Shown piece by piece: positions 17,142 through 61,946 of a DNA stretch of 64,000 bases (position 1 is the first letter of the stretch; every line of letters starts with the position of its first letter). A program made the position numbers and the translations under genes. This DNA comes from Candidatus Moraniibacteriota bacterium (GTDB lineage Bacteria > Patescibacteriota > Minisyncoccia > Moranbacterales > UBA1568). The DNA is taken from NCBI GenBank assembly GCA_013334245.1, contig JAAXXZ010000002.1:21166-85165 (forward strand), in the 5' to 3' direction. The notes below the pieces were generated by a model. The model searched no databases. It saw only the letters and a program-made list of their open reading frames with translations, and was not told the origin of the DNA.

Positions 17142-17228
17142 GGAGAGGTGGCCGAGTGGTTGAAGGCGCGCGCTTGGAAAGCGCGTTAGGGGCAACTCTA
17201 CGCAGGTTCGAATCCTGTCCTCTCCGCC
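17142..17228 (+). tRNA. tRNA-Ser (anticodon GGA), class II with long variable arm
   Basis: Acceptor GGAGAGG/CCTCTCC, D-arm GCCGAGTGGTTGAAGGC, anticodon stem CGCGC/GCGCG with loop TTGGAAA (GGA), long variable arm, T-arm CAGGTTCGAATCCTG, discriminator G. No encoded CCA. Confidence 0.85.
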
Positions 17229-38015: not shown

Positions 38016-38044
38016 TTTGAGGCTTGACCAAAGGATTTTTTTGC
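38016..38044 (+). promoter_or_regulatory. Consensus promoter TTGACC-17-TATACT upstream of giant gene
   Basis: cttgaccaaaggatttttttgctgtatact. Confidence 0.55.
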
Positions 38045-38067
38045 TGTATACTGTCTCTAGAGATATA

Positions 38068-38115
38068 TGAACGGGTGGCCCGGATTCCTTTTCCGGGCAC
38101 CCGTTTTCTTTTTGC
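38068..38115 (+). promoter_or_regulatory. Leader stem-loop with T-run (terminator/attenuator-like) in 5'UTR of giant gene
   Basis: aacgggtggcccgg-attcctttt-ccgggcacccgtt followed by ttctttttg, between the promoter and the ATG at 38123. Confidence 0.45.
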
Positions 38116-38122
38116 GGCAGCT

Positions 38123-49405: not shown

Positions 49406-49494
49406 CTTTTCGCCTGAATAAAGCTATTTTATGATTACTGTCGCTTCGGCGACCCTTCGTGTTTCCTTTCGTTTTTGAATACTATCAAAACCGT

Positions 49495-50967
49495 ATGAGC
49501 GTCAAGAAGAAGCCCGTAAAAAAGCCGGTGAAAAAGGGTTCGAAAAAGCCTGTGAAAAAGGTGGCCCCGAAGAAGCCCGTAAAAAAGACGTCTTCAAGCA
49601 AAGCGGCAATGAAAAAGCTGGTGAAAAAGGTTGTTTCGAAGAAGGTTCCAGCGAAAAAAGTAACATCGATACCGAAAAAGACCGTGAAAAAAGCACCGAT
49701 CAAGAAAGTCATCGCCAAGTCCGTTCCGAAGAAGGCTGCGCCAAAGAAAGCGGCACCGAAGAAACTTCCGTCGAAGCAGGCGAAGGCGGCGCCAAAAAAG
49801 AAGGTGTCCGCTCCGAAGTCGGAACCGAAGAAAACCAAGGCCGAGGTCAAGAAGGAAGAGAAGAATGACGCGTTCGAGGAGATCGTGAACCGTGGCAAGC
49901 AGCGCGGTTTCGTGACGGAAGACGAGATCATCCATATCCTCCCGGATGTCGAGACCGACCTCGATGCCCTTGAACGGTTGTATGGAAGTCTTGAAGAGGC
50001 CGGTGTCCGCGTGGTCACGTCCGACGAGATGCTCAAGGTGGAGACCGACCAGATTGCCGAGACCTTCGAGACCGTCAAGGAGAAGGTGCCGAAGAAGAAA
50101 TCCCAGGAGCGCCCTCAGCCGGTGGACGGTGAGGATGATACCTCCGATCTCGTGCAGATGTATCTTCGGGAAATCGGTCGTGTCGCGCTTCTGAACGCCG
50201 AGGAGGAAGTGCGTCTTGCCAAGAATATCGAAAAGGGCGATATCGCGTCCAAGCAGAAGCTGACCGAGGCAAACCTTCGTCTTGTGGTCTCGATCGCGAA
50301 GAAGTATGTCGGCCGTTCACACAATCTCTCCCTTCTCGATCTCATTCAGGAGGGGAATATGGGGTTGTTTCGCGCCGTCGAGAAATTCGATTATCGCAAG
50401 GGGTATAAGTTCTCGACGTATGCCACCTGGTGGATCCGTCAGGCCATCACCCGCGCACTCGCGGACCAGTCCCGTACTATCCGCATCCCGGTCCATATGG
50501 TGGAGACGATCAATAAGTATCTTCAGGTAACCCGACGACTGGTTCAGGACCTTGGCCGTGAACCGTTGCCGGAGGAGATCGCCGCGGAAATGGGCATGGA
50601 GGTTGACAAGGTCCGTCATATACAGAAGATCTCGCAGGAGACCGTCTCCCTCGAGACGTCCATCGGGGACAGCGACGATGATTCGGTGCTGGGCGATTTC
50701 ATCGAGGACACCGAAACCGTCATGCCGAACCAGTCCGCAGCACGAAAGCTCCTGAAAGAGCATATCGCCGACATTTTGGGCGAGCTGACTCCTCGCGAGC
50801 AGAAGATCCTTCGGATCCGGTTCGGTCTCGAGGACGGTGTGACTCATACGCTCGAGGAGGTCGGTCAGGAGTTCGGCGTCACTCGCGAGCGCATCCGACA
50901 GATCGAGGCCAAAGCGCTCGAGAAGATCCGCGAGCACGACAACGTGAAGAAGCTCCGGCATTACTAA
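49495..50967 (+). CDS. rpoD: RNA polymerase sigma-70 factor RpoD with N-terminal Lys/Pro/Ala-rich (KKPVKK) histone-H1-like repeat extension
   Basis: Regions 1.2-4.2 are present ([54 protein letters not shown]). About 120 aa of KKPVKK/AAPKK repeats precede them. Classic dnaG-rpoD synteny. Confidence 0.92.
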
Positions 50968-51196: not shown

Positions 51197-51245
51197 ACCC
51201 AACGGGTCCCCTTCGGGGGCGGTAGGGCAGGGTGAATTAAATGAT

Positions 51246-51608
51246 ATGAAGTATTTTGTTTATCTTCTGCAGAGCGAAAAAGATAAGCGTTTTTATATCG
51301 GTTCGACATCGGATCTTGAAAAAAGACTGACGTACCATAATCGCGGTTCGAACAAGTCGACACGGCATAGGAGACCGTTGAAGCTTGTACACGTCGAGGA
51401 GTACGATGAGAAGTCGGATGCGACGAAACGAGAATTTCTTCTGAAAAGTCCGAAAGGTTTTTTGGAAAAGAAGAGAATTATAGAAGATGTACGAAATTCC
51501 GGCGAACCTCAAACAAACGGGTTCCCTTCGGGTGTGGCAGAGCAGGAGAAAGGAGTTTCGTTTGATGAGAATGGTGATGTCTTGAAAGAGAATGATATTC
51601 CGGTGTAG
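51246..51608 (+). CDS. GIY-YIG nuclease family protein (tRNA-adjacent; stop codon lies inside tRNA-Asn 5' end)
   Basis: MKYFVYLLQSEKDKRFYIGSTSDLEKRLTYHN is a GIY-YIG motif. It is a paralog of the 17256 ORF. Its TAG stop is at 51606-51608, within the tRNA acceptor/D region. Confidence 0.8.
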   Translation: MKYFVYLLQSEKDKRFYIGSTSDLEKRLTYHNRGSNKSTRHRRPLKLVHVEEYDEKSDATKREFLLKSPKGFLEKKRIIEDVRNSGEPQTNGFPSGVAEQEKGVSFDENGDVLKENDIPV

Positions 51609-51671
51609 CTCAGCGGTAGAGCAGGGGACTGTTAATCCCTTGGTCGCAGGTTCGAATCCTGCCGCCGGAGC
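51599..51671 (+). tRNA. tRNA-Asn (anticodon GUU)
   Basis: Acceptor TCCGGTG/CGCCGGA, D-arm GCTCAGCGGTAGAGC, anticodon stem GGGGA/TCCCT with loop CTGTTAA (GTT), T-arm GCAGGTTCGAATCCTGC, discriminator G. A terminator hairpin follows (51681-51706). Confidence 0.85.
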
Positions 51672-51756
51672 CGACAAATGCAAGGCCACCCATTCGGGTG
51701 GCTTTTGCGTTTGCTTCGGCTCCGAGCGGAGCGAGTGAACGGTTTCACTCGCGTCA

Positions 51757-52052
51757 GGATTCGAAAGGCGGAGCGTCGTTCGGTCAGCAGACCGGACAGC
51801 GAGCCGGGGTCGAGGAATTATCCCGCGACGGCGGGATAATATTTGTGACCGAATCCGCCGCCGGATATTCAGATGTGCTTCCGTCAGGATGAGAACGCCG
51901 GAGCGTCTTTTGCCAGCAGGCAAAAGCGCTTGTCACGTCGCTCACGAACGACGTGATGAAACGGTGCCCAGCCCGAGGGGCGCGACGGCGCACCGAGAGG
52001 CGAGTCACGTCATTCGCGAACGACGTGGCGAGGGAGCATCCTGCCGCCGGAA
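51757..52052 (+). repeat. Two degenerate tandem ~130-nt units each ending in a tRNA-Asn 3'-end-like segment (aatcc(t)gccgccgga)
   Basis: The units begin cgtcaggat..gaa..gccggagcgtc (51757 and 51886). tRNA-3'-like matches are at 51851-51865 (gaatccgccgccgga) and 52038-52051 (atcctgccgccgga, exact 14 nt). Confidence 0.5.
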
Positions 52053-52375
52053 CCCTGTGCCGTTTTCTGAATTTTCAGGGCATACTGCCGTTTACGAAAT
52101 ATGATGTTATTTGATTCTTCCAGTATTTCCAAAGATAACTTTACCGAAAGATTATCCGTCACGTTCAGGACAAGTCTATTCCCGAATTTCTCGTGCAACG
52201 GCCGAAGGAATTCATCTCCCCAGGAAGGGGAAAACGTGGTTACCCCGTCAAAATCGACGATGACATCTTGATTGTCTTTGACATCATTGAGAGTCGGAGT
52301 AAATGCTGAAAGCGCCTCTTTTCCGGCCTGGCGGGAGGTGAGGACAGTCCCGAATTTTTTCAGTTCGATGTTCAT
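52010..52375 (-). CDS. STAS-like (DUF4325-type) protein
   Basis: About 120 aa with SpoIIAA/STAS-like pattern (VIVDFDGVTTFSPSWGDEFL). Immediately downstream of the GHKL ATPase gene. Start chosen at MNIELKK. Confidence 0.55.
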   Translation of the reverse strand: MNIELKKFGTVLTSRQAGKEALSAFTPTLNDVKDNQDVIVDFDGVTTFSPSWGDEFLRPLHEKFGNRLVLNVTDNLSVKLSLEILEESNNIIFRKRQYALKIQKTAQGSGGRMLPRHVVRE

Positions 52376-52386
52376 ATCGGTCAATT

Positions 52387-53112
52387 CTAAAAAGTGATGT
52401 ACGTGAAGCATCCCGAAACGGTATCCGGCGTTTCCTGGATATCAAGGCCGGTCCTTTCCTTTGAGATTTCAACGGTCGCGTTACCGGTCTGAAAGAATAT
52501 GTCCATATTCGCGATCGGAGCGACTTTTCTCACGAACTTTAGTCCGTTGCCTCGTTCCTCGGGGGCTCTTCCGGAAAGAATCTCCGTGAACGCCGTCCTG
52601 AGCGCCTCCGCATCATTCTTCAGGGATGGCTTGACTCGCTTCAACGTTTTCAGGATGCCTTGTCCCTTGTCCGCGAGAACGATCTGTCCTTTTGCGACGT
52701 CATAGCCGAAAAATATGCCTCGGATATCCGGCCAGTTGCCGATATTATGATCGTAGGAGTTGTTCCCGATTTCGCTGGTAGCCGCCACGATAAGGGAAAA
52801 CGAGGCGCTGAGGTCGGGGTTTAACCGCAGATCTCGCTCCAGATTCTCGATTCTTGATTGAAATACGGCTGTGCTGGGACAGTAAAAGTCCGGAGGGGGC
52901 AGTGTTCCATTGGGAGCGTTCAGCCACTCTATCGCCTGGTTATACAAAGAGTCTCCCAGAAAAATTCGGATTTTTCGTACTGAAAAACGCCGACTCCCAC
53001 CCGGGGTCCGAATCGCGGTCAGTTTCCCGTTCTTATCCCACGCCCTGAGCGTGGTAGGGGTAACGCCGAGTATTTTCGCCGCCTTTCCTATCGATATGTA
53101 TTCTTCGTCCAT
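52387..53112 (-). CDS. HTH_17 (excisionase/MerR-like) DNA-binding domain fused to GHKL/SpoIIAB-like ATPase domain
   Basis: N-terminal ISIGKAAKILGVTPTTLRAWDKNGKLTAIRTPGGSRRF (HTH_17 pattern). The C-terminal part carries an N-box (EIGNNSYDHN) and G-box (ERGNGLKFV) of the anti-sigma-factor kinase-like ATPase fold. Confidence 0.65.
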   Translation of the reverse strand: MDEEYISIGKAAKILGVTPTTLRAWDKNGKLTAIRTPGGSRRFSVRKIRIFLGDSLYNQAIEWLNAPNGTLPPPDFYCPSTAVFQSRIENLERDLRLNPDLSASFSLIVAATSEIGNNSYDHNIGNWPDIRGIFFGYDVAKGQIVLADKGQGILKTLKRVKPSLKNDAEALRTAFTEILSGRAPEERGNGLKFVRKVAPIANMDIFFQTGNATVEISKERTGLDIQETPDTVSGCFTYITF

Positions 53113-53215
53113 ATTTCGGAAATATATTCACAGTGTATCAAAAGTTATAAATATTGTCAAAGAATATAAAAATATATAAATCTGAATATTATATATAAAT
53201 AAATCTTTACTCCCC

Positions 53216-53239
53216 GACATCTTCGGGAGGGAGTATGAC
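53216..53239 (+). repeat. Intergenic repeat family copy R1 (core cgacatcttcgggagggagtatga)
   Basis: Identical 24-nt core to the copies at 54706 and 56541. Confidence 0.7.
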
Positions 53240-53287
53240 TTCGATAATCCATCTTCTGATTTTGCGTAGCATTCGCATGGCGAATGA

Positions 53288-53983
53288 CTACTTCTCATTC
53301 TCGATTGCCACGTTCAGGAAGAAGATCGTTTCACTTTTCAGTTTCGCGCGGGCCCAGTCTTTTTGCGGTTCACCCAGGAGTTCTCCGAGGCCGTCGAGGA
53401 TATGCCGGTCGTCCATGTGCTCAAGCATATCGACGCACTTTTGCAGGGCCTCTTTGAAGGGGAGTCCGGAACGCTGCTCCGCTATTTCGCGGTTGATCTC
53501 CCAGCCTTGTTTGAAGAAATAATACACGTCGAAGACATCGCGGCTCGTTTTGCCGATCCGTTCGTACATGGCCATGAGCTTGTGCGCGAACATGTCCGGC
53601 TCGGTCATGACGAGCATGGAAATCCCCAGAAAGGTCTTCATCTCGTAGTTCGATCCGAACTGTCTTCGGTTGATCTCGATCTTTATATTCTGCGCTCCCG
53701 CCTCGTATGAAATAACGGTAAGCAGATTGAAGCGTTTTCTATGGGAATCCACGATGACCCCGTACGTTTCGGCGATTTTCTGGATTTTCCCGAACACGAA
53801 CTCCTCCTTGGAGTCGTCCAAGAGATCGAGATCGATATCGACCGAATATCGGTCGAGACCGTAGAAGAGCATCGCGGCCGTCCCGCCCTTGAATCCGAGG
53901 TACGGAGCGATAGTCGTATCGGTATAGATATCCTTGAGGATCCGGAGCAGGATGCTCTTATGTTTGGCGTAGTTCGCAGCCAT
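53288..53983 (-). CDS. Nucleotidyltransferase AbiEii/AbiGii toxin family protein
   Basis: LGFKGGTAAMLFYGLDRYSVDIDLDL, the characteristic AbiEii NTase motif (GGTAL...S.DIDL). Confidence 0.8.
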   Translation of the reverse strand: MAANYAKHKSILLRILKDIYTDTTIAPYLGFKGGTAAMLFYGLDRYSVDIDLDLLDDSKEEFVFGKIQKIAETYGVIVDSHRKRFNLLTVISYEAGAQNIKIEINRRQFGSNYEMKTFLGISMLVMTEPDMFAHKLMAMYERIGKTSRDVFDVYYFFKQGWEINREIAEQRSGLPFKEALQKCVDMLEHMDDRHILDGLGELLGEPQKDWARAKLKSETIFFLNVAIENEK

Positions 53984-53984
53984 A

Positions 53985-54581
53985 TCATTTCGTGTTTATG
54001 AAGTTCCGGTGAAATTTCCGTACCTGTTTTTCCAGCCGCTTGTTGCCATATACGGGCAGGATTTCGAAAACCTTGTCCCAATCCAAGACATTCAGGCTAT
54101 CGAAGTAATATTCCTTGGTCACATACAACCGGTCCAGAAAAGCCCGCTCTTTCGTAGCCCAGGCGACGCCGTTTCTATGATCGATTCCCGTGGTATCGCT
54201 CAAGACGGAACTTTTCATGCGGACATAGTTGATTTTCTGACCGTTAGCCTCTATCTCGCGGTTCAGATACGATGCGACGAAGATATTCCCATAGTACTGG
54301 AAACTGACTCCTTCACGGGTCAAAACGGTCTCGAAGCCGATATAGGAGGGGGTATAGATCCGCGTCGCCAGCTCGTACCGGTCGTAGTTTTCGTCTTTGG
54401 CATACAGGCCATGGCGGACCCGTAACAGCTTCCCTGCGCGGATGTACTTCTTCAGGCGATTGGTGATGGTCGCACTCTCTGATTCGCCCCACAGCAAAGC
54501 CACGTCCTGAACGGAGAAGACGGTTTTCGATGATCGTAGCAGTATTTCCAGGAAATTTCCCTTTGAAGGTCTATTTTCCAT
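53985..54581 (-). CDS. AbiEi-family type IV antitoxin
   Basis: N-terminal wHTH and C-terminal domain typical of AbiEi (FSVQDVALLWGESESATITNRLKKYIRAGKLLRVRHGLY...). 1-nt gap to AbiEii. The track start at 54632 is possible. Confidence 0.75.
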   Translation of the reverse strand: MENRPSKGNFLEILLRSSKTVFSVQDVALLWGESESATITNRLKKYIRAGKLLRVRHGLYAKDENYDRYELATRIYTPSYIGFETVLTREGVSFQYYGNIFVASYLNREIEANGQKINYVRMKSSVLSDTTGIDHRNGVAWATKERAFLDRLYVTKEYYFDSLNVLDWDKVFEILPVYGNKRLEKQVRKFHRNFINTK

Positions 54582-54652
54582 ATATGTACTGATATGGTAC
54601 TTTAAGTACCCTTTCAGTAACAATAGTAGCATATTTTGATACTGCGCGCAAG

Positions 54653-54731
54653 GACCCGGGTTTTTGATTGCTCAAGAAAGGCTTCACAAAGCGACACTTG
54701 CGACATCTTTGGGAGGGAGTATGATGATATG
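54653..54731 (+). repeat. Intergenic repeat family copy R2 (palindrome cccgggtttttgattg + ggcttcacaaagcgacacttgcgacatctttgggagggagtatgatgatatg)
   Basis: Shares about 75 nt with R3 and the 3' core with R1 and R4. Confidence 0.75.
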
Positions 54732-54838
54732 TAACCTTGGAAACGCACCTGACTTCTTTTCTGTTCTGGTATAAGGAATTATATGGAAAAACTTGAACTC
54801 AGGAATAGAAAAATCAGAAGATCGTCGGTATACTCGAG

Positions 54839-55579
54839 ATGCCGGAGGGGCTAGTACATGGTACGGCTGTGGTTTTGCACGGTTTCGGTGGGATAAAGGA
54901 ACAGGATCATATTCTGAAGATGGCGGCCACATTCCGAGACAACGGATTTATCACGTTCAACTTTGATGCCACTAACTCTTTCGGCGAGAGTGAGGGGGAG
55001 TACTGGGACGCGCGGCTCGGGCTACACGCTGAGGATTTGGAGGATGTCGTGAAATGGGTGCGACAGCAGGTCTGGTTCAGGGAACCTCTGGCATTGACGG
55101 GGCACAGTATGGGCGGGTATGCCGTTGCTCGATACGCGGAACGATATCCGGACGAAGTCTCGATCCTTGTCCCGATCGCCCCGGTCGTTTCGGGCAAGCT
55201 TTCTTTTGAAGCGCATCATGAGGAAGACCCCGTCGCATTCGAGGAATTCAGGCGGCGTGGATTCAAAGAATCCGTGAGTCATACATCCGGTCGTCTCAAG
55301 CGTTCCTCGTGGGCGGAAATGGAGGAACGGCTGCATCATGATCTTTTGCCGGATGCGAAGAAACTCGTCATGCCGACGCTTCTGGTCGTCGGGTCGAAGG
55401 ACTTCTCGATCAGACCTCGGGATGTGCAATCACTCTACGACGCGCTTCCGGCGAGAAAAGACAACGAGATCCGGATTATCGAGGGGGCGCCGCACACGTA
55501 TCGAAGTCGGGAAGATGTCGATGCCTTGTATGAGATCATCTCGAACTGGTTGAAGGACTTGATGCTGAAGAAACATTAG
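54839..55579 (+). CDS. Alpha/beta hydrolase
   Basis: HGFGG oxyanion region and GHSMGG nucleophile elbow. GC-rich, unlike its neighbours. Flanked by R2 and R3. Confidence 0.75.
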   Translation: MPEGLVHGTAVVLHGFGGIKEQDHILKMAATFRDNGFITFNFDATNSFGESEGEYWDARLGLHAEDLEDVVKWVRQQVWFREPLALTGHSMGGYAVARYAERYPDEVSILVPIAPVVSGKLSFEAHHEEDPVAFEEFRRRGFKESVSHTSGRLKRSSWAEMEERLHHDLLPDAKKLVMPTLLVVGSKDFSIRPRDVQSLYDALPARKDNEIRIIEGAPHTYRSREDVDALYEIISNWLKDLMLKKH

Positions 55580-55636
55580 GAATAAGCCAGAAAAGGAGCC
55601 ATGCACCATTGTTGTGAACAGCTTCTATCCCGATTG

Positions 55637-55732
55637 AATCAATCAAAAACAACCAAAAACCCGGCCATCCACACGGACCCGGGTTTTTGATTGAGAAAAA
55701 AGGCTTCACAGAGCGACGCTTGCGACATCTTC
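55637..55732 (+). repeat. Intergenic repeat family copy R3 (long hairpin caatcaaaaac...cccgggtttttgattg + ggcttcacagagcgacgcttgcgacatcttc)
   Basis: Direct repeat of R2, diverging after cgacatcttc. Confidence 0.75.
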
Positions 55733-55790
55733 TGAAAGTGAGCGCGTCATTATTAGCTCTTGAAAACAAGTGATTTCGTCTGTAGCTTGA

Positions 55791-56258
55791 TTATTTTATT
55801 GCATTCAATTCGACAGGAAAATTGTGAAGATTATCACATTCGCTGCAAATGTAGGTCATACTTCCAGCATAGCTCTCATTTAATCCTGTTATTGAAATAA
55901 CAAATGAGCCTGCTCCTTTTATCCTATGTTTTTGGTCAAAATAATTAATTACTCCTATTCTGTCCGGAGTAACAAAACCTTGAAGAATAAAAGCGACCTT
56001 TAGAATAGAGTTTGAAAAAACTTCATATTTACCGGTAATGCGTTTTCCATGCTGTGATATGGATAAAATACCTTTTTCGCCTTCGAACCACGGCTTTTGC
56101 CGGTCTTGATTGCCATACACAATTTCATATTTCCCTGAAATGTTCGGATAGAACTTCATAAACAGTGAATAATACCATTCAAATATCTTATTTTTTAGTA
56201 AATAAGCAATGAATGTGGCAAAGAGTGATGAAACGATGCCTGTAATGAAAGCGCTCAT
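55791..56258 (-). CDS. Hypothetical membrane-anchored protein (AT-rich, island)
   Basis: 155 aa with an N-terminal TM (ITGIVSSLFATFIAYLL) and a soluble domain with CSEC. About 30% GC. Confidence 0.5.
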   Translation of the reverse strand: MSAFITGIVSSLFATFIAYLLKNKIFEWYYSLFMKFYPNISGKYEIVYGNQDRQKPWFEGEKGILSISQHGKRITGKYEVFSNSILKVAFILQGFVTPDRIGVINYFDQKHRIKGAGSFVISITGLNESYAGSMTYICSECDNLHNFPVELNAIK

Positions 56259-56540
56259 AGGTTCGAAAATAGTAAAATAATTAAGCCAATACTATATATC
56301 ATACCCCAATTAAACCGAAATACAATTTTGCAGGAAAGTAATTTGGATGCCAAAATGAACTAGGCACTTTGCTCCCTTTGGGCCTAATTGTTTTAGGTAT
56401 TGGTTGCTGATATAAAAAAGGGTATACACATGAAGTGGCATACGCCTCTTTGGTTAATTGCTGGTCAAGCTGGCACCGGCACCGCCCATAAGGGATGCCT
56501 TTTTGGCGCAATCCTCGATTTTGAAACAAATCTGCCTTTT

Positions 56541-56571
56541 CGACATCTTCGGGAGGGAGTATGATGATATG
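56541..56571 (+). repeat. Intergenic repeat family copy R4 (cgacatcttcgggagggagtatgatgatatg)
   Basis: Identical core to R1 and R2. Confidence 0.7.
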
Positions 56572-56777
56572 AACTCCGAAATGTACAAATATCTGTTCCG
56601 GATTAATTCATATTTTTCCGGCCCGGAAGGCATAAGGGGGGGGTGCTGACGGGACAAAATGTACCTGATGCATTTTCTGAGATCAAAATGAGAAAGATGT
56701 TAATGATTTCTTTGCCTCATTAAATTAGCTTTGACTAAGGCTAGTTTGGGGCGTAGAATCTATAAAATCATTACTTT

Positions 56778-59270
56778 ATGATTCCGGTTAGAATTAAGAA
56801 CAATTTATATAGATTTAAGAGTTTTTGGCTGTTCAAGAAATGGCTTAACAGGCCTGTATTTTTGTTTTGGGCAAATATGTTCCATGGGCATTACACTATG
56901 GATAATACTAAAAATTACATACGAATATTAAAGCCAACCATAGTTCCCTTTTTGGGATCTGTATTGTATAGCGCCTTTATCATATTTATTCTTGAGCTTT
57001 ACAATAAATATTTTCCAATAAATTCTCAGTTTTTTGATAAGGCTTCAACTGATTCATTGCTTACTGCTGTGGCTAGTCTTATGGGTGTATTTCTCGGACT
57101 TTATTTTGCAGCTCTTTCTGGCATTGCAAGCAATTTCTTAATAAGAGCAACACAGGATGTCAGAAGATTCTTTTTTTCTGCTCCCCTGGGGTTGCAATAT
57201 GTTCGCACTATTGCAATTACTGGAATTGTAAGCGTATTTTATTTATTCCTTAAATCGTTTGGGCACACCTTTCACCCCGTTGGCCTTGCTTTTCTGTCTC
57301 TATTAGCTGCATACATAATTATAAGGTTCTGGAGTATTGGATCTTCGGTTTTTAATTCAATGGAACCGGGCAGCTCCTTTCCATTTGTTAGAAAGGATAT
57401 AGAAGATTCTATAAAAGATATTGCACCACCAGGATTTCAATGGCAAACGCCATTGCTTCAAAATCATAGACGTAGATTGGTTGTTACTGATTTGGATTTG
57501 CTAGCAAACTTGGTAGATTTTGGAATTAAAGAACTCGAACTTCCTGATGAGCAGTTGCTTACAGCTATTGCTCACTTGCGATTAATCTTACTCAAATATT
57601 CAGAAAGCAAGGGAAAAATACCCAGAAAGAGTCTCTGGCATGAGACCAAAAGCCAGTTTGAGAATTGGGCATTTACTGACTCTACCCGAATTAGTCTTGC
57701 TCTAAATACCGGAACATCTATCCAGCCTAAATCAATTCAGGATTTCTTCTGGTTTGAAAATAGAGTCTTTGATATTGTCGTCAAAATACTCAATGAGCTT
57801 GGAAAAAAGAACAAAATACTATCTGTATTTCAGGGCTCTGAATATTTTATTGATGTGGCTGAAGAATATGGGGAAAATCTTGAAGAAGAAAATGTAAAAA
57901 CATTGCTTCAAAAACTAGAGGGAATTTTTTCCAACACTCATTTGGAGAAAACAGATGAAGGTCAAGTTGCGCACAAGGAGCAACTTGCACTTTTAGAAAC
58001 CCAGGGAAGATTAGCCATAGCCGCATTACTTGGGCTAATTAGACACATTGATAAATATCCTTGTGAAAAAATTTCATCGAAAATATCTGGGATTAATTGG
58101 AATTCCAAAAAGAAAGAAACTATTTATTTGACGGGACTTCCATCTTCCATGCTGCCAAGATTAGAAGAAATAGAAGCTAATCTGGAAAATGAAAAGGTTA
58201 TTGAGGGCAAGATACAATCTCCTAGATGGTATATAAAAACTCTTTGCATGCAACAGTACTTATACTCTCTTGAGAAGTATTTTATTTATATAAAATCATT
58301 GCATTCTAATTATTTTCAACGAAAATTCGATAAATTATTAGCAGAGGAACAATATTCGCTTGCAGTGCATTTCCTTCAAAGATGGCTTGAGTTTTCCAAT
58401 AAGTATCAGAGTTTAATTGGATATCTCAAAAAACAGGCTGAATGCTGTAGAAAATTTCATTGGGTAAAAGATTTGCCATTTCCAGACTTTGATTTTTCTC
58501 AAGAAGAAAAAACTGCTTTAGACAGAGAAAGAGAGGTTACTGATAAAATGATTCAGTTACTTCCCAAATTAAAATCAGCAGTAACTGGAAAAGAATTACC
58601 TGACTACTTTGGTCAAGCGCTCACTCTTGGGCTCCAAGCTTGCTATGAAGCATGCATGGATAATGATGTGGAAAGATTTATAAATATTTTCCCAATTATT
58701 TTTGATGCATCGCTGGTATCTCATGATAAAATTCGGAAAGAAGTTCAAAATTGGAGCCAGGACGATAGTAAGATTATTTACTCAACAGAACCACTGGCTA
58801 ATCTGTTCGAAATAAGTGGGTTTGCTCTTCTTTATGCGGAGCTATATCAAAAAAATGAACTCTGGGACATAACAAAAAAAACGTGGAATGCATATTTAAA
58901 AATTGTAGATGCTAAAGCGGCAATTCAGTTTATGATTGCAATTGTGGGATACCGAAATAGCTTGTTTGTCTTGATGCCCCAAGCAATTCTGAGAACAAAC
59001 TGGCAGATGAATTTTAATAGAAAAATGAAAGAAGCGGGGTTGCCAGTTTTTCCTGAAGATAGATATGGCAGAAAAGGAAAAATATCTCATAAAAGTGCGT
59101 TAATAAGAGTTATTGCAAAATGGGGAGGCCTATCAATATTTTCTGCCCAAGAAGTATTTTTCACTATTTATTTATCGAATCGTCCTGAAGCAAAAGACCT
59201 AGCTTTCCTAGATAAGCATGAGCTTAAAGAGGAGGTTGAAAAAGAGGAAAAAGGAAACATTGAAGAATAA
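56778..59270 (+). CDS. Hypothetical 830-aa protein: N-terminal 4-TM domain + large all-alpha cytoplasmic domain (AT-rich island, unknown function)
   Basis: Long ORF at about 31% GC. TM helices at about aa 55-75, 95-120, 150-170 and 175-195. No recognisable catalytic motif. Confidence 0.6.
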   Translation: MIPVRIKNNLYRFKSFWLFKKWLNRPVFLFWANMFHGHYTMDNTKNYIRILKPTIVPFLGSVLYSAFIIFILELYNKYFPINSQFFDKASTDSLLTAVASLMGVFLGLYFAALSGIASNFLIRATQDVRRFFFSAPLGLQYVRTIAITGIVSVFYLFLKSFGHTFHPVGLAFLSLLAAYIIIRFWSIGSSVFNSMEPGSSFPFVRKDIEDSIKDIAPPGFQWQTPLLQNHRRRLVVTDLDLLANLVDFGIKELELPDEQLLTAIAHLRLILLKYSESKGKIPRKSLWHETKSQFENWAFTDSTRISLALNTGTSIQPKSIQDFFWFENRVFDIVVKILNELGKKNKILSVFQGSEYFIDVAEEYGENLEEENVKTLLQKLEGIFSNTHLEKTDEGQVAHKEQLALLETQGRLAIAALLGLIRHIDKYPCEKISSKISGINWNSKKKETIYLTGLPSSMLPRLEEIEANLENEKVIEGKIQSPRWYIKTLCMQQYLYSLEKYFIYIKSLHSNYFQRKFDKLLAEEQYSLAVHFLQRWLEFSNKYQSLIGYLKKQAECCRKFHWVKDLPFPDFDFSQEEKTALDREREVTDKMIQLLPKLKSAVTGKELPDYFGQALTLGLQACYEACMDNDVERFINIFPIIFDASLVSHDKIRKEVQNWSQDDSKIIYSTEPLANLFEISGFALLYAELYQKNELWDITKKTWNAYLKIVDAKAAIQFMIAIVGYRNSLFVLMPQAILRTNWQMNFNRKMKEAGLPVFPEDRYGRKGKISHKSALIRVIAKWGGLSIFSAQEVFFTIYLSNRPEAKDLAFLDKHELKEEVEKEEKGNIEE

Positions 59271-59271
59271 T

Positions 59272-60321
59272 ATGAATAGCTTGATAAAAAAAATTATAGA
59301 AAAAATTAAACCTGTCTTGCGGGATCCTCTTTGTCTGAAAAAATGGGATTCTCCTGATCATTATGGGCATCGCTTAGAAGACAGTAATCGTCTATCCGTA
59401 AGGGTTTCAGGCTCCATGAGAAGAGATTTGTACTCTTATAATGGGGATGCTTTTATGTTCACTCAAGATATCTATGCTGGAATAATGCCATTCATGCATT
59501 ACAGAGGAAAAAGAGAAGCCTACCCAACTAAAGTAATGCCTGCAAATAAAGAGAAAGAGCAAATGATTTGCGAAGGAATTTCAGATAGAGGCAATGCATA
59601 TTTCATTGAGGATGCATTGTGTGATTTTGTTAGAAAAACAGCACAAATATTATGCACTGATGGCATTGTATTTTATGAGATAATTTATGACAAAGATGAA
59701 AATGGACAAATTGAGAGTTTTGAATTAGAAACAATCAGGTCAAAATATTTTTTCCGTTTTCTTGGAAATTATTACCAAATAATACCTTGGTGGGAGGCAA
59801 AAAGATCTCACGTTAGAGTTCAGCTTGTAAAAATTCCAAAAGACAAAATTTTAAGAATAGATATCCCTCTTGAACTTGGGGGTGGTAGAAAATTAAAGAG
59901 AGTAATCAAGCGGTTATGGAAATTGAGTAAAGAAATAATACCTATATTTCAAATGGAAGCGATGGAGAATGATAAGAGTATCGGTTTTGATATGGAAAAA
60001 TTTAGCATGGCCAAATATTTAGAAATAGCAAAAGTAACAAGAGATTTTGGGTGGAGCCAGAGACAACGAGCTGAGAGTAGTTCAATCACTGAATACTATC
60101 TGATATTGCGTCATTTAAGAACAAAGAAGGCGGAAGCTTTAATTAGGGAAAAAATTATATTGGAGTTAAACAATACTCTCAATGGACTAGTTTTAAATTT
60201 GGGCGTAAAAGTAAGTATGGACAACTTGTTTACGTTACGAGACGTGGAAAAACAAGAGGAAATTCTAAAAAAAGGAAATGTTACTTTTGTGGATATTGTT
60301 AATGCTATAAAACTAGAATAG
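59272..60321 (+). CDS. Hypothetical 349-aa protein, translationally coupled to upstream 830-aa gene (unknown function)
   Basis: ATG 2 nt after the upstream TAA. AT-rich. No recognisable motif. Confidence 0.6.
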   Translation: MNSLIKKIIEKIKPVLRDPLCLKKWDSPDHYGHRLEDSNRLSVRVSGSMRRDLYSYNGDAFMFTQDIYAGIMPFMHYRGKREAYPTKVMPANKEKEQMICEGISDRGNAYFIEDALCDFVRKTAQILCTDGIVFYEIIYDKDENGQIESFELETIRSKYFFRFLGNYYQIIPWWEAKRSHVRVQLVKIPKDKILRIDIPLELGGGRKLKRVIKRLWKLSKEIIPIFQMEAMENDKSIGFDMEKFSMAKYLEIAKVTRDFGWSQRQRAESSSITEYYLILRHLRTKKAEALIREKIILELNNTLNGLVLNLGVKVSMDNLFTLRDVEKQEEILKKGNVTFVDIVNAIKLE

Positions 60322-60447
60322 CTAAGCTTTATTCATCAAGGTTCTGACTTCTTCCATAACGTGGAGCAAAACGAAATCCGCCCGGAGCCGGAAAATGGGT
60401 TAAGTGCATTTTTTTAAAGATCACGTCTGATTCATTTCGCTTCTTAA

Positions 60448-60482
60448 CTAATATAAAAGGGTATACGTACGTATACCCTTTT
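60448..60482 (-). terminator. Perfect palindromic intrinsic terminator closing the rSAM-peptide operon
   Basis: aaaagggtatacgtacgtataccctttt. Confidence 0.75.
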
Positions 60483-60484
60483 GG

Positions 60485-60523
60485 TTACTTGCCGGCGGAG
60501 CCGGTGCTTGCGCCACTATCCAT
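60485..60523 (-). CDS. Tiny ORF 2: MDSGASTGSAGK (12 aa) with consensus SD, candidate ribosomal peptide
   Basis: Minus strand reads GAGGAGGtaaacgctATGGATAGTGGCGCAAGCACCGGCTCCGCCGGCAAGTAA. 8-nt SD-to-ATG spacing. It resembles tiny ORF 1. Confidence 0.45.
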   Translation of the reverse strand: MDSGASTGSAGK

Positions 60524-60576
60524 AGCGTTTACCTCCTCTGCGTCATTGTTTTTTTTTGAAAAAAGCCTCTGTTTGA

Positions 60577-60612
60577 CTACTTGCCTGTGGAACCGGTGTT
60601 TGCGCCGCCCAT
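60577..60612 (-). CDS. Tiny ORF 1: MGGANTGSTGK (11 aa), SD formed by last two Arg codons of rSAM gene, candidate ribosomal peptide
   Basis: Minus strand reads AGGAGGTGAgaataATGGGCGGCGCAAACACCGGTTCCACAGGCAAGTAG, immediately after the rSAM stop. Confidence 0.45.
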   Translation of the reverse strand: MGGANTGSTGK

Positions 60613-60617
60613 TATTC

Positions 60618-61760
60618 TCACCTCCTTTCGTGTTCGTTTTGATTTTGGAAAATTGTCGCTTCTATTGCAATTGCCTGTTCGAAATGCATGTCGAGCCACC
60701 TTCGCACGCATTCTTGATAGAGTTTCGAGAGGGTGTTGTCCGGTCCGATGGGGCCGACGGTGAGCGGAGAAAAGTCTTTGCCGAAACGCGATATGCCTGA
60801 CTGAAGCTCCCGTAGGGAATACGCATTGGCGTAGGGGAGCCGGAAACAGGCATCGGCATCGATGACGAAGGTTTCCTTCGGGGCTATGGAGTGCGGGAAA
60901 TATCGGATCTCGATACCGTCGATCTCGAACCAGACCGATGAATAGTCCGCGATTGCTTGTGAGAATGCGCAATCGAAGACTTTTCGCCCTACGGCTTCAA
61001 TCAGTTTTGGTACATCATCTGTCCAGTAGAACTTTAACGTGACGGGTCGATGTTTACTGATTTGCTTCAGTTGTCTCCAGGATTCCTTGAATTGTTCTGC
61101 GGTCACGGAGAGCGGCATGAGCTCGGGTCTGGCCGGGGTTACGGTCGTCACGTGCCACGCTTCGATACTTTGTGTCAGTGTATCGCATGTCGCGACGAGC
61201 GTATCGTAATTGAGGCCTGTGAGCGTGGTCAGCGCGCTTACCGATCCATTTGCAACAAGGATATCATGTGCGGCGTCGATGCCTGTGAGCGCATTACGGA
61301 ACGCCGTAGTGGAACATCGCTGCCGGTTGTGGACGGCCTCTGGTCCGTCTATCGAGATATCAAGCCCGTCGAAGCGGAATCCGGAGGCGAGAATCTCTGG
61401 CAGGTGCCGGACATACGAACCATTGTCGATAAGACCGATATAGGCATCTGGCCGTATTTGTCGTACCGCACGGAGCCAGTCGAGGTGTTCCGGCGAGAAG
61501 GTTCGGCCTTCGTGAATGAGGGCGAATCCATGGGGCATCTGCCGGGAAATCGTTTCGACGGCGATACCGAGAGCGTGACTGTCGGCTGGCAGCGAGTCAT
61601 CGTGGGGGAATATGCAGTGTCGGCATTGCAGATTACACTTCCTCGTACCGATGACAGAGAGAATGTTCGGGAGATCGTCGGGCATACGGGTACGGATCGC
61701 TTCGGCGGAACCCGCCTGACGCATGTATGCCAGCCACAAGTCGGCGACGGAATGTTTCAT
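60618..61760 (-). CDS. Radical SAM domain protein
   Basis: CNLQCRHC (Cx3Cx2C) near the N-terminus. The track ORF extends to 61820, but I prefer the start at MKHSVADLW. No SPASM-like Cys cluster. Confidence 0.75.
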   Translation of the reverse strand: MKHSVADLWLAYMRQAGSAEAIRTRMPDDLPNILSVIGTRKCNLQCRHCIFPHDDSLPADSHALGIAVETISRQMPHGFALIHEGRTFSPEHLDWLRAVRQIRPDAYIGLIDNGSYVRHLPEILASGFRFDGLDISIDGPEAVHNRQRCSTTAFRNALTGIDAAHDILVANGSVSALTTLTGLNYDTLVATCDTLTQSIEAWHVTTVTPARPELMPLSVTAEQFKESWRQLKQISKHRPVTLKFYWTDDVPKLIEAVGRKVFDCAFSQAIADYSSVWFEIDGIEIRYFPHSIAPKETFVIDADACFRLPYANAYSLRELQSGISRFGKDFSPLTVGPIGPDNTLSKLYQECVRRWLDMHFEQAIAIEATIFQNQNEHERR

Positions 61761-61946
61761 GGTCGTTTTGCTAGGGGTTGTGAAAGGGCTTTTCTGTCCA
61801 GAGTATGAGCTGGTGTTCAAGAATAGACAAAATAGATGAATGAAACAAAGTTCGATTTTGTATTTATATAAAGCAAAAGAAACGACATCTGATTCTATTC
61901 ATCAAAAATATTGACTCTTTGGATGATTCGGGAATATCATAGGCGT

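What the first reader, a model, noticed from the sequence alone, without database searches (positions are those of the whole stretch)
51672..60447. AT-rich (~33% GC vs ~57% backbone) genomic island integrated next to tRNA-Asn, with stacked degenerate tRNA-3'-end remnants and defence-type cargo but no integrase
Downstream of tRNA-Asn there are two degenerate tandem units, each ending in a tRNA-Asn 3'-like segment (51851-51865 and 52038-52051). A further degenerate copy (gaaatccgcccggagccg, 60374-60390) lies near where AT-rich DNA gives way to GC-rich DNA. The cargo is an HTH_17-GHKL ATPase plus STAS(DUF4325) pair, an AbiEi/AbiEii system, an orphan membrane protein, and a two-gene module of unknown function. 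Stacked att-like remnants fit serial integrations at the tRNA. No integrase remains, so the island is fixed or was mobilised in trans. The right-hand remnant is short and degenerate and should be treated cautiously.
Basis: partly seen in the sequence, partly recalled or inferred. Interest (0 to 1): 0.7.

Follow-up and report, generated by a model that had tools for sequence, protein, structure and literature searches.

The report
tRNA-Asn cassette island with portal-like module
Downstream of tRNA-Asn in a Moranbacteria (CPR) genome lies a real, integrase-less variable island built from swappable gene cassettes, and its newest AT-rich cassette carries an undescribed, widespread gene pair (a membrane protein plus a protein with a phage-portal fold) that often sits among anti-phage defence genes.

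Summary
The island is real, but its description needs correcting. tRNA-Asn (51599-51672) follows dnaG-rpoD in a Candidatus Moranbacteria genome. The two proximal tRNA-3'-like remnants are genuine: relatives carry cleaner stacked copies at the same site, each followed by a terminator hairpin. Only 55733-60423 is AT-rich (35% GC, strongly foreign k-mers). The part from 52061 to 55732 is 49% GC and host-like. The backbone is 54.6% GC.

The cargo is confirmed, and an alpha/beta hydrolase was missed. No recombinase is present, but relatives carry large serine recombinases overlapping the tRNA-Asn 3' end.

Three new findings:
- The island is a cassette array punctuated by a composite repeat (terminator hairpin, promoter, RBS). 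All copies lie in one orientation and share the core CGACATCTTCGGGAG. Other Moranbacteria have the same repeat with shuffled cassettes.
- The 830-aa/349-aa unit (56685-~60368) is a 3.7-kb cassette, 94% identical in a different genome.

I read the pair as a probable new defence module, but this is untested.

The parts
51599..51672 (+). tRNA-Asn (GTT), intron-less; the integration hot spot downstream of dnaG-rpoD
   Evidence: ARAGORN; Rfam RF00005 72.7 bits; dnaG and rpoD by Pfam
51673..51865 (+). Scar unit 1. It has a terminator hairpin (51685-51702), an inverted T-arm-like CAGGATTCGAA (~51755-51765), and ends in the decayed tRNA 3' copy CGAATCC-GCCGCCGGA (51850-51865).
   Evidence: Sequence; terminator scan; 97% identical copy in L007 18507-18730, and L007's own unit ends in an exact 28-nt tRNA-3' copy
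51866..52055 (+). Scar unit 2, ending in a tRNA 3' copy: exact 14-mer at 52038-52051, 16/17 to 52054
   Evidence: homologous units in L003 (12846-12968) and L004 (8084-8231) also end in tRNA-3' copies followed by hairpins
52010..52411 (-). STAS-like DUF4325 protein. The ORF's last ~20 codons read into the att scar; cassette homology with L043 ends at 52091.
   Evidence: Pfam PF14213 2.7e-6; L043 comparison
52387..53112 (-). MerR/HTH_17 N-terminal domain fused to a GHKL-type ATPase-like C-terminus (N-box, DxGxG and GxGL motifs)
   Evidence: Pfam MerR 8e-12; residues 95-223 align to a HATPase_c-positive protein paired with DUF4325 in L008, E 1e-7; phrog_3364 2.7e-12
53215..53238 (+). Cassette-junction repeat, core only (CGACATCTTCGGGAGGGAGTATGA)
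   Evidence: 3 copies in the window, 0 expected; the AbiE cassette homology with L004 starts exactly here
53288..53983 (-). AbiEii nucleotidyltransferase toxin
   Evidence: Pfam 2.2e-17; PADLOC PDLC02324 7.8e-77; 90-92% aa identity in L004 and L008
53985..54632 (-). AbiEi antitoxin/regulator
   Evidence: PADLOC PDLC02255 2.6e-60; 86-93% aa identity in L004 and L008
54649..54731 (+). Cassette-junction repeat: hairpin/terminator, -35 TTGCGA / -10 TATGAT, GGGAGGGAG RBS and ATG
54839..55579 (+).
   Evidence: Pfam Hydrolase_4 2e-21; GC
55618..55732 (+). Cassette-junction repeat: left arm, hairpin and core up to CATCTTC. It marks the left edge of the AT-rich block.
55791..56258 (-). 155-aa protein with an N-terminal TM helix, 34% GC; function unknown
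   Evidence: Only a weak PADLOC '2TM effector' hit, E 1e-3; no Pfam, NCBIfam or PHROG hit
56413..56492 (-). Paralogous copy of the right-flank 'palindromic terminator + tiny peptide gene' (MGGAGASLTSN, 56454-56489)
   Evidence: Repeat family D3; alignment A5
56526..56574 (+). Cassette-junction repeat, right part with core. It is followed by a 26-codon ORF and a second right-arm copy at ~56656-56681.
56685..60368 (+). The 3.7-kb mobile AT-rich cassette, defined by 94.2% nucleotide identity to L037 in a 47%-GC backbone. It ends ...CGTGGAGCA.
   Evidence: blastn and end sequences; GC of L037
56778..59270 (+). 830-aa protein: N-terminal transmembrane helices plus a large all-alpha solenoid
59272..60321 (+). 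349-aa portal-fold protein (the ORF could start at 59218; homologues favour 59272)
60373..60390 (+). Degenerate tRNA-3'-like remnant CGAAATCCGCCCGGAGCCG, directly after the cassette end
   Evidence: Sequence; Smith-Waterman score 22 = noise level; positional support from the L037 comparison
60424..60524 (+). Right junction. Homology with the L007 flank resumes here and covers the palindromic terminator (60455-60482) and a tiny peptide gene.

Best explanation
The region is a hypervariable, recombinase-less cassette island at the tRNA-Asn 3' end of a Candidatus Moranbacteria (CPR) chromosome. I propose four steps.

(1) Shown by comparison: the tRNA-Asn 3' end is a recurrent integration site in this clade. 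Repeated integration and loss left 130-190-nt scar units, each a terminator hairpin plus a partial tRNA 3' copy.

(2) Inferred: the enzyme is a large serine recombinase supplied in trans. Such genes overlap the tRNA-Asn 3' end, or a copy of it, in three relatives.

(3) Architecture shown, mechanism inferred: distal to the scars, one- or two-gene cassettes are joined by a composite repeat made of a bidirectional terminator hairpin, a sigma-70-like promoter, an RBS and an ATG. All copies have one orientation. The partial copies all break at the core CGACATCTTCGGGAG. Cassettes are exchanged among Moranbacteria by recombination at this repeat, whether site-specific or homologous.

(4) Shown: the newest cassette (56685-~60368, 35% GC) arrived recently from a low-GC donor as a 3.7-kb unit. 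It ends in the tRNA-like GGAGCA.

The cassette's two genes encode a membrane-anchored alpha-solenoid and a phage-portal-fold protein that work as one complex. I infer that this pair is an anti-phage or anti-MGE module. The portal-like subunit would act as a ring, decoy or sensor for phage packaging or DNA, and the membrane subunit would act as anchor or effector.
For: Site and scars:
- tRNA-Asn and its flanks are established.
- Stacked tRNA-3' copies followed by hairpins occur in L003, L004 and L007.
- Exact 22-23-nt tRNA-3' copies lie about 5.7 kb downstream in L006 and L011.
- Empty or different site states exist: L003 has ilvC right after the stack; in L007 unit 1 (97% identical to the window's) abuts the sequence equivalent to window 60424.

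Recombinase in trans:
- Serine recombinase genes overlap tRNA-Asn in L012 and L013, and overlap the tRNA-3' copy in L011 (with tRNA coordinates).

Repeat and cassettes:
- The repeat occurs 3-4 times in the window and only inside the island, with 0 expected.
- It also occurs, in the same orientation and downstream of tRNA-Asn, in L004, L007 and L008.
- Cassettes are shuffled. The AbiE cassette is in the window, L004 and L008 at 86-93% aa identity. The GHKL-STAS cassette is joined to a different neighbour in L043.
- The left arm of the repeat is the 3' end of a KamA-family radical SAM gene that is intact in L007.

Composition: two tiers.

AT-rich cassette:
- 94.2% nucleotide identity to L037 over exactly 56685-~60368, in a backbone of different GC.

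The gene pair:
- The pair is present in all eight other complete contexts fetched, L037-L041, L044, L045 and L048; in L047 and L049 the upstream gene is cut by the contig end.
- One protein, P0249, is a fusion of both.
- Portal fold.
- Defence neighbourhoods: type I R-M plus an AAA_15/21 ATPase plus IS66 in L044; type I R-M plus ThsB-TIR in L048; Imm_superinfect/SHOCT in L041; AbiE in the window.
- A second independent instance sits directly after rpoD-tRNA-Asn, with a GC dip, in L039.
- A serine recombinase lies immediately upstream in L038 and L040.
Against: - No recombinase is present in the 64-kb window, so the enzyme is unidentified for this genome.
- By sequence alone the tRNA-like remnants score no better than one chance site, and the distal remnant is at noise level.
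- The junction repeat contains a plausible terminator, promoter and RBS. Conservation of its core could reflect expression signals rather than a recombination site. A different CPR contig (L040) also has repeated intergenic units between single genes.
- No att repeats were found around the pair in L038, L039 or L040.
- The defence role of the pair rests only on neighbourhood and fold. It has no hit in PADLOC, Pfam, PHROGs or NCBIfam.
- A role in the mobile element's own DNA transfer is equally compatible with a portal-like ring in a membrane complex.
- All loci are metagenome assemblies. Junctions at repeats could be mis-joined.
Confidence: 0.68

Rival explanations
1. The array is vertically inherited and not mobile. 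The junction repeat is only a duplicated terminator/promoter/RBS expression unit. Differences between genomes come from homologous recombination and deletion between these units, without any site-specific integration.
For: The repeat holds a convincing hairpin with a T-run, a TTGCGA-N16-TATGAT promoter and an RBS/ATG. The left half of the island is compositionally host-like and about as diverged from relatives (83-85% nt) as rpoD is (82%). L040 shows analogous repeated intergenic units in another CPR genome. No recombinase is present in the window.
Against: The 3.7-kb AT-rich cassette is 94% identical in a genome with a different backbone, with sharp ends. Cassette order is permuted between genomes, not only deleted. 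Partial repeat copies all break at one 10-15-nt core. tRNA-3' copies and recombinases at this tRNA in relatives show that real integration events occur here.
Confidence: 0.2
2. The array is an integron-like cassette array (a CALIN, i.e. a cluster of attC sites without an integrase). A tyrosine IntI encoded elsewhere would insert cassettes at attC-like hairpins.
For: Cassettes of one or two genes are separated by imperfect-palindrome repeats of about 80-120 nt, all in one orientation. The repeats are homogeneous within a clade, as in chromosomal superintegrons. There is a toxin-antitoxin cassette in reverse orientation (AbiE). The long hairpin has a 2-nt bulge.
Against: No IntI or other tyrosine recombinase was found in the window. 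The hairpin arms (CAATCAAAAACCCGG/CCGGGTTTTTGATTG) do not fit the RYYYAAC/GTTRRRY boxes (read from the sequence). The repeat carries its own promoter and RBS. The homology breakpoints lie outside the hairpin, at CGACATCTTC. Gene orientations are mixed. Rfam gave no attC-like hit. A literature search for integrons in Patescibacteria found nothing relevant.
Confidence: 0.07
3. The AT-rich block is the remnant of a prophage that integrated at tRNA-Asn. The portal-fold gene and its large neighbour are decaying structural genes with no cellular function.
For: Portal fold; tRNA-adjacent position; a serine recombinase and a ParB-methyltransferase next to the pair in L038 and L040; lower GC than the host.
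Against: Both ORFs are intact and are conserved as a strict pair at 46-95% identity across many lineages. The family has 1059 clusters and includes a fusion protein. None of ten fetched contexts carries a gene with a capsid-, terminase- or tail-family Pfam hit nearby, though many neighbouring genes have no Pfam hit at all. There is no hit in IMG/VR with the family patterns and no PHROG match. The upstream protein is a membrane alpha-solenoid, not a terminase.
Confidence: 0.08
4. The join is an assembly or binning artefact. The AT-rich 4.7-kb block was joined to a high-GC Moranbacteria contig through shared repeats.
For: An identical 4816-bp stand-alone contig (L002) spans exactly 55699-60514 and ends in the repeats. 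Contigs of relatives also break at these repeats (L003 at a position equivalent to window ~53284; L037 starts in the repeat arm).
Against: Independent assemblies place the same gene pair right after rpoD-tRNA-Asn (L039). L037 has the same repeat arm on the left and a tRNA-like GGAGCA plus hairpin on the right. L007 has a different low-GC gene (607 aa, 39% GC) at the equivalent distal position of its array.
Confidence: 0.05

Closest known systems
tRNA-linked genomic/defence islands with tandem accretion (integrative elements that target a tRNA 3' end)
   Same: The island sits directly 3' of a tRNA gene and has partial direct copies of the tRNA 3' end. Relatives show variable or empty states. 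The newest part has foreign composition. The cargo includes defence genes (AbiE). Recombinases sit at the same tRNA in relatives.
   Different: No integrase is present. Most internal junctions are not tRNA copies but a separate promoter-containing repeat. Half of the island is compositionally native. The recombinases seen at this site in relatives are large serine recombinases rather than the more usual tyrosine integrases (this last contrast is from general knowledge).
Chromosomal integron cassette arrays / CALINs (e.g. Vibrio superintegron with VCR repeats)
   Same: There is an array of small cassettes separated by homogeneous, same-orientation, hairpin-containing repeats. It includes a toxin-antitoxin cassette. 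Cassette content differs between close relatives.
   Different: There is no IntI. The repeats do not fit the attC R/L boxes and carry their own promoter and RBS. The apparent crossover core lies outside the hairpin. Gene orientations are mixed.
Tailed-phage and GTA portal proteins (HK97/SPP1-type portal fold)
   Different: There is no detectable sequence membership in any portal Pfam or PHROG family. It is small (about 320-350 aa). Its genes lie beside a membrane alpha-solenoid instead of a terminase and capsid. It is found in defence islands and small integrative elements, not in viral contigs.
Two-gene membrane-sensor defence systems such as Kiwa (KwaA/KwaB) or Zorya-type membrane complexes (recalled from general knowledge)
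   Same: The layout is a multi-TM protein followed by an overlapping soluble partner gene. Both are carried on mobile islands among R-M and Abi genes.
   Different: There is no sequence match to any PADLOC v2 model. The soluble partner has a portal fold. This is an analogy of layout only, and no function was tested.
AbiE (AbiEi/AbiEii) type IV toxin-antitoxin abortive-infection system
   Same: Adjacent AbiEi and AbiEii genes give strong PADLOC and Pfam matches.
   Different: Nothing unusual. It is an ordinary member, shared as one cassette with other Moranbacteria.

Membership tests
tRNA-linked integrative genomic island | Located immediately 3' of a tRNA gene | tested here: met
   tRNA-Asn is at 51599-51672 and variable DNA starts at 51673.
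tRNA-linked integrative genomic island | Direct repeat of the tRNA 3' end marking island boundaries | tested here: inconclusive
   The proximal copies at 51850-51865 and 52038-52054 are supported by cleaner copies in L003, L004 and L007. The distal copy at 60373-60390 is at noise level by score, but it abuts the cassette end defined by L037, which itself ends in GGAGCA.
tRNA-linked integrative genomic island | Integrase/recombinase encoded at one end | tested here: not met
   No recombinase domain was found in the island ORFs or in the other ORFs tested; tblastn with serine recombinases was negative. Serine recombinases are present at the same tRNA in L011, L012 and L013.
tRNA-linked integrative genomic island | Composition deviating from the host | tested here: met
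   Met only for 55733-60423 (35.3% GC, 4-mer z 9-10). The segment 52061-55732 is host-like.
tRNA-linked integrative genomic island | Absent (empty site) in related genomes | tested here: met
   In L003 the att stack is followed by ilvC. In L007 unit 1 lies 40 nt from the right-junction sequence. Other relatives have different cargo.
Integron / CALIN | IntI tyrosine recombinase with attI and Pc | tested here: not met
   No tyrosine recombinase was found in the window. The rest of the genome cannot be tested.
Integron / CALIN | attC sites with R''-L''/L'-R' boxes (RYYYAAC...GTTRRRY) | tested here: not met
   The hairpin arms CAATCAAAAACCCGG/CCGGGTTTTTGATTG do not fit the boxes, and the homology breakpoints lie at CGACATCTTC outside the hairpin. 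No IntegronFinder attC model was available.
AbiE abortive-infection / type IV TA | Adjacent AbiEi (wHTH antitoxin) and AbiEii (nucleotidyltransferase toxin) genes | tested here: met
   PADLOC 2.6e-60 and 7.8e-77; Pfam AbiEii 2.2e-17 and AbiEi_4 7.9e-5. The genes are 1 nt apart.
Phage portal protein | Portal fold (wing, stem, clip, crown) | tested here: met
Phage portal protein | Sequence membership in a portal family (Pfam/PHROG) | tested here: not met
   No hit for the protein itself or for 39 remote family members. A profile search against PDB sequences found no portal.
Phage portal protein | Encoded with terminase, capsid and other head genes | tested here: not met
   None in ten contexts. 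The family was not found in IMG/VR.
Phage portal protein | Dodecameric ring with a DNA channel | not testable with these tools
   This needs multimer prediction or cryo-EM.
GHKL-STAS partner-switching pair (RsbW/RsbV-like) | GHKL ATPase/kinase motifs plus an adjacent STAS protein | tested here: met
   DUF4325 STAS 2.7e-6. The N-box, G1 and G2 motifs can be read in the sequence. The protein aligns to a HATPase_c-positive homologue paired with DUF4325 in L008. Phosphorylation was not tested.
Any catalogued defence system (PADLOC-DB v2) for the 830/349 pair | Profile match to a catalogued component | tested here: not met
   No PADLOC hit at E <= 0.01 for either protein.

The most novel reading that the evidence does not exclude
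The 830-aa membrane alpha-solenoid and the ~350-aa portal-fold protein form a previously undescribed, widespread two-component system (at least 1059 clusters at 50% identity; sometimes fused) in which a domesticated phage portal has been recruited by cells or mobile islands. It would work either as an anti-phage defence (a portal decoy or sensor coupled to a membrane effector) or as a membrane DNA conduit. It travels as a recombinase-less 3.7-kb cassette inside an integron-like but IntI-independent cassette system at tRNA-Asn in CPR bacteria.
Probability: 0.4. Interest if true: 0.85.

Novelty: new variant of a known kind. Interest (0 to 1): 0.62.

Why it matters
The island itself is a familiar kind of object, a tRNA-linked variable or defence island. 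Three aspects go beyond that.

First, it documents in the little-studied CPR bacteria a hot spot that is conserved across genera (rpoD-tRNA-Asn). The hot spot has serine recombinases and stacked att scars.

Second, its internal organisation points to a cassette-exchange mechanism that is not an integron. Same-orientation composite repeats with a sharp common core separate cassettes, and those cassettes are shuffled between species. One 3.7-kb cassette moves between genomes without its own recombinase.

Third, the 'unknown' two-gene module pairs a phage-portal-fold protein with a membrane alpha-solenoid. The pair is large, unannotated and repeatedly embedded in type I R-M, TIR and Abi neighbourhoods. 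If it is a defence system, it would be an example of a viral structural protein (the portal) co-opted for immunity, and it is directly testable. If instead it is a DNA conduit, it bears on how genome-reduced CPR cells exchange DNA.

Tried and rejected
- An exact-protein look-up of DnaG found nothing. Look-ups of AbiEii and the 830-aa protein found only short metagenome contigs.
- Tandem Repeats Finder did not detect the two 'tandem units'.
- The Rfam E-value scan of 49-64 kb found only the tRNA, so the junction repeat matches no known RNA family.
- The junction-repeat core searched in JGI metagenome contigs gave only 2 loci, one of which is the same organism as L004.
- The 830-aa family was searched in IMG/VR: no relatives.
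- Pfam, NCBIfam, PHROGs and PADLOC gave nothing for the 830-aa, 349-aa and 155-aa proteins, apart from one weak PADLOC 2TM hit for the 155-aa protein.
- Profile searches against PDB sequences gave no meaningful hit for either protein.
- A search for att-type direct repeats around the pair in L038, L039 and L040 found none.
- The window's radical SAM protein is unrelated to the KamA-family gene whose 3' end forms the repeat's left arm, so the repeat does not derive from the window's own right flank.
- Literature searches (integron + Patescibacteria; portal-like + anti-phage; portal protein + defense island; CPR + serine recombinase + tRNA) found no description of this array or of the pair.
- I rejected the integron, prophage-remnant and assembly-artefact readings as the main explanation (see rivals).

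Full report
**1. Observation**

ARAGORN and Rfam confirm tRNA-Asn(GTT) at 51599-51672. It lies downstream of dnaG (47615-49405) and rpoD (49459-50967). The far side of the region holds a radical SAM gene (60618-61820, minus strand), a TrmB-like regulator and RsgA.

A scan of reference genomes with RpoD identifies the organism as Candidatus Moranbacteria/Moraniibacteriota, a CPR/Patescibacteria lineage. The closest hit is L003, with 98% RpoD identity.

The tRNA-3'-like segments are present as described:
- 51850-51865 is CGAATCC-GCCGCCGGA, with one deletion relative to the tRNA.
- 52038-52051 is an exact 14-mer, and 16/17 to 52054.

Score alone does not establish them. A Smith-Waterman scan of the whole window with the tRNA 3' 26-mer gives them 29 and 28, but a chance site near 62771 also scores 28. 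The right-hand remnant at 60373-60390 scores 22, level with several chance hits.

**2. Comparative evidence rescues the proximal remnants**

- In L004, the tRNA end is followed by two further copies (TCCTGCCGCCGGAGCA at 8005-8020 and GAATCCTaCCGCCGGAGCA at 8213-8231), each followed by a terminator-like hairpin.
- L003 has the same layout.
- L007 has an exact 28-nt copy of the tRNA 3' end plus downstream bases at 11722-11749.
- L006 and L011 carry exact 22-23-nt copies about 5.7 kb downstream of the tRNA.
- The window's unit 1 is 97% identical to L007 18507-18730.
- The units occur in permuted order in different genomes.
- Each unit also holds an inverted T-arm-like CAGGATTCGAA (minus strand).

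I conclude that stacked att-type scars at tRNA-Asn are a clade-wide feature.

**3. Boundaries and empty site**

In L007, unit 1 is followed after 40 nt by sequence that matches window 60424-60524 at 88%. That stretch covers a palindromic terminator and a tiny peptide gene. Relative to L007, the window therefore carries about 8.5 kb of extra DNA between ~51892 and 60423. In L003, the closest relative, the scar stack is followed directly by ilvC.

**4. Composition**

- Backbone: 54.6% GC.
- 52061-55732: 49.3% GC, GC3 0.52-0.73, tetranucleotide distance z of 1.4 or less. This part is not anomalous.
- 55733-60423: 35.3% GC, GC3 0.28-0.31, z 9-10.

The description 'about 33% GC island' holds only for the right-hand 4.7 kb.

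**5. Cargo**

| Coordinates | Strand | Product | Evidence |
|---|---|---|---|
| 52010-52411 | - | DUF4325/STAS | |
| 52387-53112 | - | MerR/HTH_17 plus GHKL-type C-terminus | |
| 53288-53983 | - | AbiEii | |
| 53985-54632 | - | AbiEi | |
| 55791-56258 | - | 155-aa TM protein, function unknown | |
| 56778-59270 | + | 830-aa protein | |
| 59272-60321 | + | 349-aa protein | |

The GHKL assignment rests on motifs read in the sequence and on an E 1e-7 alignment to a HATPase_c-positive protein that is paired with DUF4325 in L008. The 830-aa and 349-aa proteins hit nothing in Pfam, NCBIfam, PHROGs or PADLOC.

No recombinase domain occurs in the island ORFs or in the other window ORFs I tested, and tblastn with serine recombinases from relatives is negative.

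**6. Recombinases at this site in relatives**

Large serine recombinase genes overlap the tRNA-Asn 3' end in L012 (13339-11909 against tRNA 11858-11930) and in L013. One overlaps the tRNA-3' copy in L011 (18196-19833 against 18241-18262). This makes mobilisation in trans by a serine recombinase a concrete hypothesis. It remains inferred for the window's genome.

**7.

A composite repeat separates the gene modules. Window copies are at:
- 53215-53238 (core only),
- 54649-54731,
- 55618-55732,
- 56526-56574.

The 24-nt core was searched in the whole window: 3 matches against 0.00 expected, all inside the island.

The consensus, built with copies from L004, L007 and L008 (alignments A1 and A2), has four parts:
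- the last ~60-170 nt of a KamA-family radical SAM gene, which is intact only in L007 15039-16193;
- a 15-bp hairpin flanked by A- and T-runs, which looks like a bidirectional terminator;
- TTGCGA-N16-TATGAT;
- GGGAGGGAG plus ATG.

All copies have the orientation of the tRNA and, in every genome, lie only downstream of tRNA-Asn.

Partial copies break at one place. Left-only copies end at ...CGACATCTTC(GGGAG), and right-only copies begin at CGACATCTTC. That is the pattern expected of a recombination core. Selection on an RBS or leader motif is an alternative explanation.

Cassettes are shared and shuffled:
- AbiE is in the window, L004 and L008 (86-93% aa; its homology starts exactly at the core, 53215).
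- GHKL-STAS is joined to an IMP-cyclohydrolase cassette in L043.
- L007 and L008 carry other cargo: MazG, IMP cyclohydrolase, TrmB plus KamA, a methyltransferase, an Exo_endo_phos protein, a cupin, and a different HATPase_c plus DUF4325 pair.

The array is not an integron. It has no IntI, the hairpin arms do not fit the attC boxes, and the repeats carry promoters.

**8. The AT-rich cassette**

Window 56685-~60368 is 94.2% identical at the nucleotide level to L037, where the backbone is 47% GC and the flanking genes are different (purM, nusA, tig).
- On the left, homology starts right after a copy of the repeat's right arm (GTACCTGAC...TTTTCT), in both genomes.
- On the right, it ends in ...CGTGGAGCA. 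GGAGCA is the 3' end of tRNA-Asn in L003, L004 and L007.
- In L037 this end is followed by a hairpin like those that follow tRNA-Asn.

The remnant is therefore positionally credible, and the cassette is a discrete 3.7-kb mobile unit without its own recombinase.

An identical stand-alone contig, L002, spans 55699-60514 and breaks at the repeats. In addition, 56413-56492 is a paralogue of the right-flank 'terminator plus tiny peptide gene', so the cassette is also bracketed by direct repeats of about 80 nt at about 70% identity. I could not resolve what this means.

**9. The two-gene module**

The 830-aa family has 68 full-length homologues at 46-95% identity, mostly from Patescibacteria, all annotated 'hypothetical'. 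The partner family behaves in parallel. A profile search of 1.8 billion representative proteins finds 1059 clusters with E <= 1e-3.

The pair is adjacent in all eight other complete contexts fetched (L037-L041, L044, L045, L048); in L047 and L049 the upstream gene is cut by the contig end. P0249 (1145 aa) fuses both halves: hhalign gives 100% probability for residues 4-796 against the 830-aa family, and the partner profile matches residues 860-1142.

Structure predictions:
- The 830-aa model (pLDDT 83.5) is all-alpha, with N-terminal membrane helices and a solenoid that matches only generic helical repeats.
- Sequence methods see no portal family.

Contexts of the pair:
- L039: rpoD, a 410-aa gene, tRNA-Asn, then the pair, with a GC dip.
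- L038 and L040: a divergent serine recombinase immediately upstream and a ParB-methyltransferase downstream.
- L044: between HsdR plus an AAA_15/21 ATPase and IS66, with HsdM/HsdS further downstream.
- L048: directly after a type I R-M operon that contains a ThsB-type TIR gene.
- L041: next to an Imm_superinfect/SHOCT gene.

No gene with a capsid- or terminase-family Pfam hit lies nearby in any context, and the family was not found in IMG/VR.

**10. Interpretation**

Best supported: a tRNA-Asn-anchored cassette island. It is assembled by repeated site-specific integration (a serine recombinase in trans; inferred) and by cassette exchange at a composite repeat (mechanism inferred).

Its latest arrival is a low-GC cassette encoding a membrane alpha-solenoid/portal-fold complex. 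I consider this complex most likely to be an anti-phage or anti-MGE module: about 0.4-0.45 for defence, with a DNA-conduit role as the main alternative.

The rival readings are a vertical array with expression-signal repeats, an integron-like array, a prophage remnant and a chimeric assembly. I weigh them in the Rival explanations section.

**11. Novelty**

The island concept is ordinary. The IntI-independent cassette architecture in CPR bacteria and the portal-fold/membrane pair appear to be undescribed in the libraries and literature I could search.

Noticed in passing
L004 7163-7789 (also L003, L006, L008, L015 at the equivalent site; window position 51632/51633): In several relatives tRNA-Asn is split in the anticodon loop by an insert of about 630-660 nt. 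The insert matches the group I intron model over its full length (RF00028, 48.1 bits vs gathering score 50, E 4.7e-11). It carries an HNH-type ORF (L004 7192-7515). ARAGORN therefore misses these tRNAs. The window's tRNA-Asn has no intron.
   Followed up: partly
window 51197-51608: About 390 nt between rpoD and tRNA-Asn are absent from L003, L004, L006 and L015. They hold a 120-aa ORF (51246-51608) whose N-terminus resembles GIY-YIG group I intron/homing endonucleases (TIGR01453 8e-7; phrog_314 1e-5). This may be a free-standing or degenerate homing endonuclease next to an intron-less allele of a tRNA that carries an intron in relatives.
   Followed up: partly
window 60485-60523 (-), 60577-60612 (-), 56454-56489 (-); radical SAM 60618-61820 (-): Three tiny Gly/Ser/Thr-rich ORFs (MDSGASTGSAGK, MGGANTGSTGK, MGGAGASLTSN) are present. 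Two have strong RBSs and sit immediately downstream of a radical SAM protein with weak SPASM-maturase similarities (TIGR04133 5e-10). This looks like a RiPP-type precursor/maturase locus. One peptide gene is conserved in L007.
   Followed up: partly
L007 16308-16358, L007 13814-; window 56569-56649; L008 17604-: Short ORFs start at the ATG of the junction repeat. Two conserved types are seen: MSSGKWLDAFACPARA / MNSGKGLEAFTCPARA... and MNSEMYKYLFRINSYFSGPEGIRGGC. They may be leader peptides or small products downstream of the KamA-family gene. Their significance is unknown.
   Followed up: no
L040 12622-12718, 13626-13721, 14606-14671: Another CPR contig has three copies of a different 66-97-nt intergenic repeat (85-97% identity). 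It separates single-gene units (polyprenyl synthase, Polbeta nucleotidyltransferase, beta-lactamase-like) a few kb from the 845/358-aa pair. Repeat-punctuated cassette arrays may be more general in CPR genomes.
   Followed up: no
L012 1979-3274 and L038 6529-7857, near tRNA-Ser(GGA) (L012 1774-1861; L038 1796-1881): A second serine recombinase type (74-86% identical between L012, L038 and L040) lies near tRNA-Ser(GGA). In L038 and L040 it lies directly upstream of the 830/350-type pair. The window also has a tRNA-Ser(GGA) at 17142-17228, which I did not examine for an island.
   Followed up: no
L007 16572-18395: A 607-aa ORF (39% GC in a backbone of about 55% GC, no Pfam, NCBIfam or PHROG hit) occupies the distal, most recently acquired position of the L007 array. 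This is analogous to the AT-rich cassette in the window.
   Followed up: no
window 38024-43810: A 1928-aa ORF lies in a region whose tetranucleotide usage deviates from the rest of the backbone (z 2.5-3.2) at normal GC. It is probably a large repetitive surface protein. I did not examine it.
   Followed up: no
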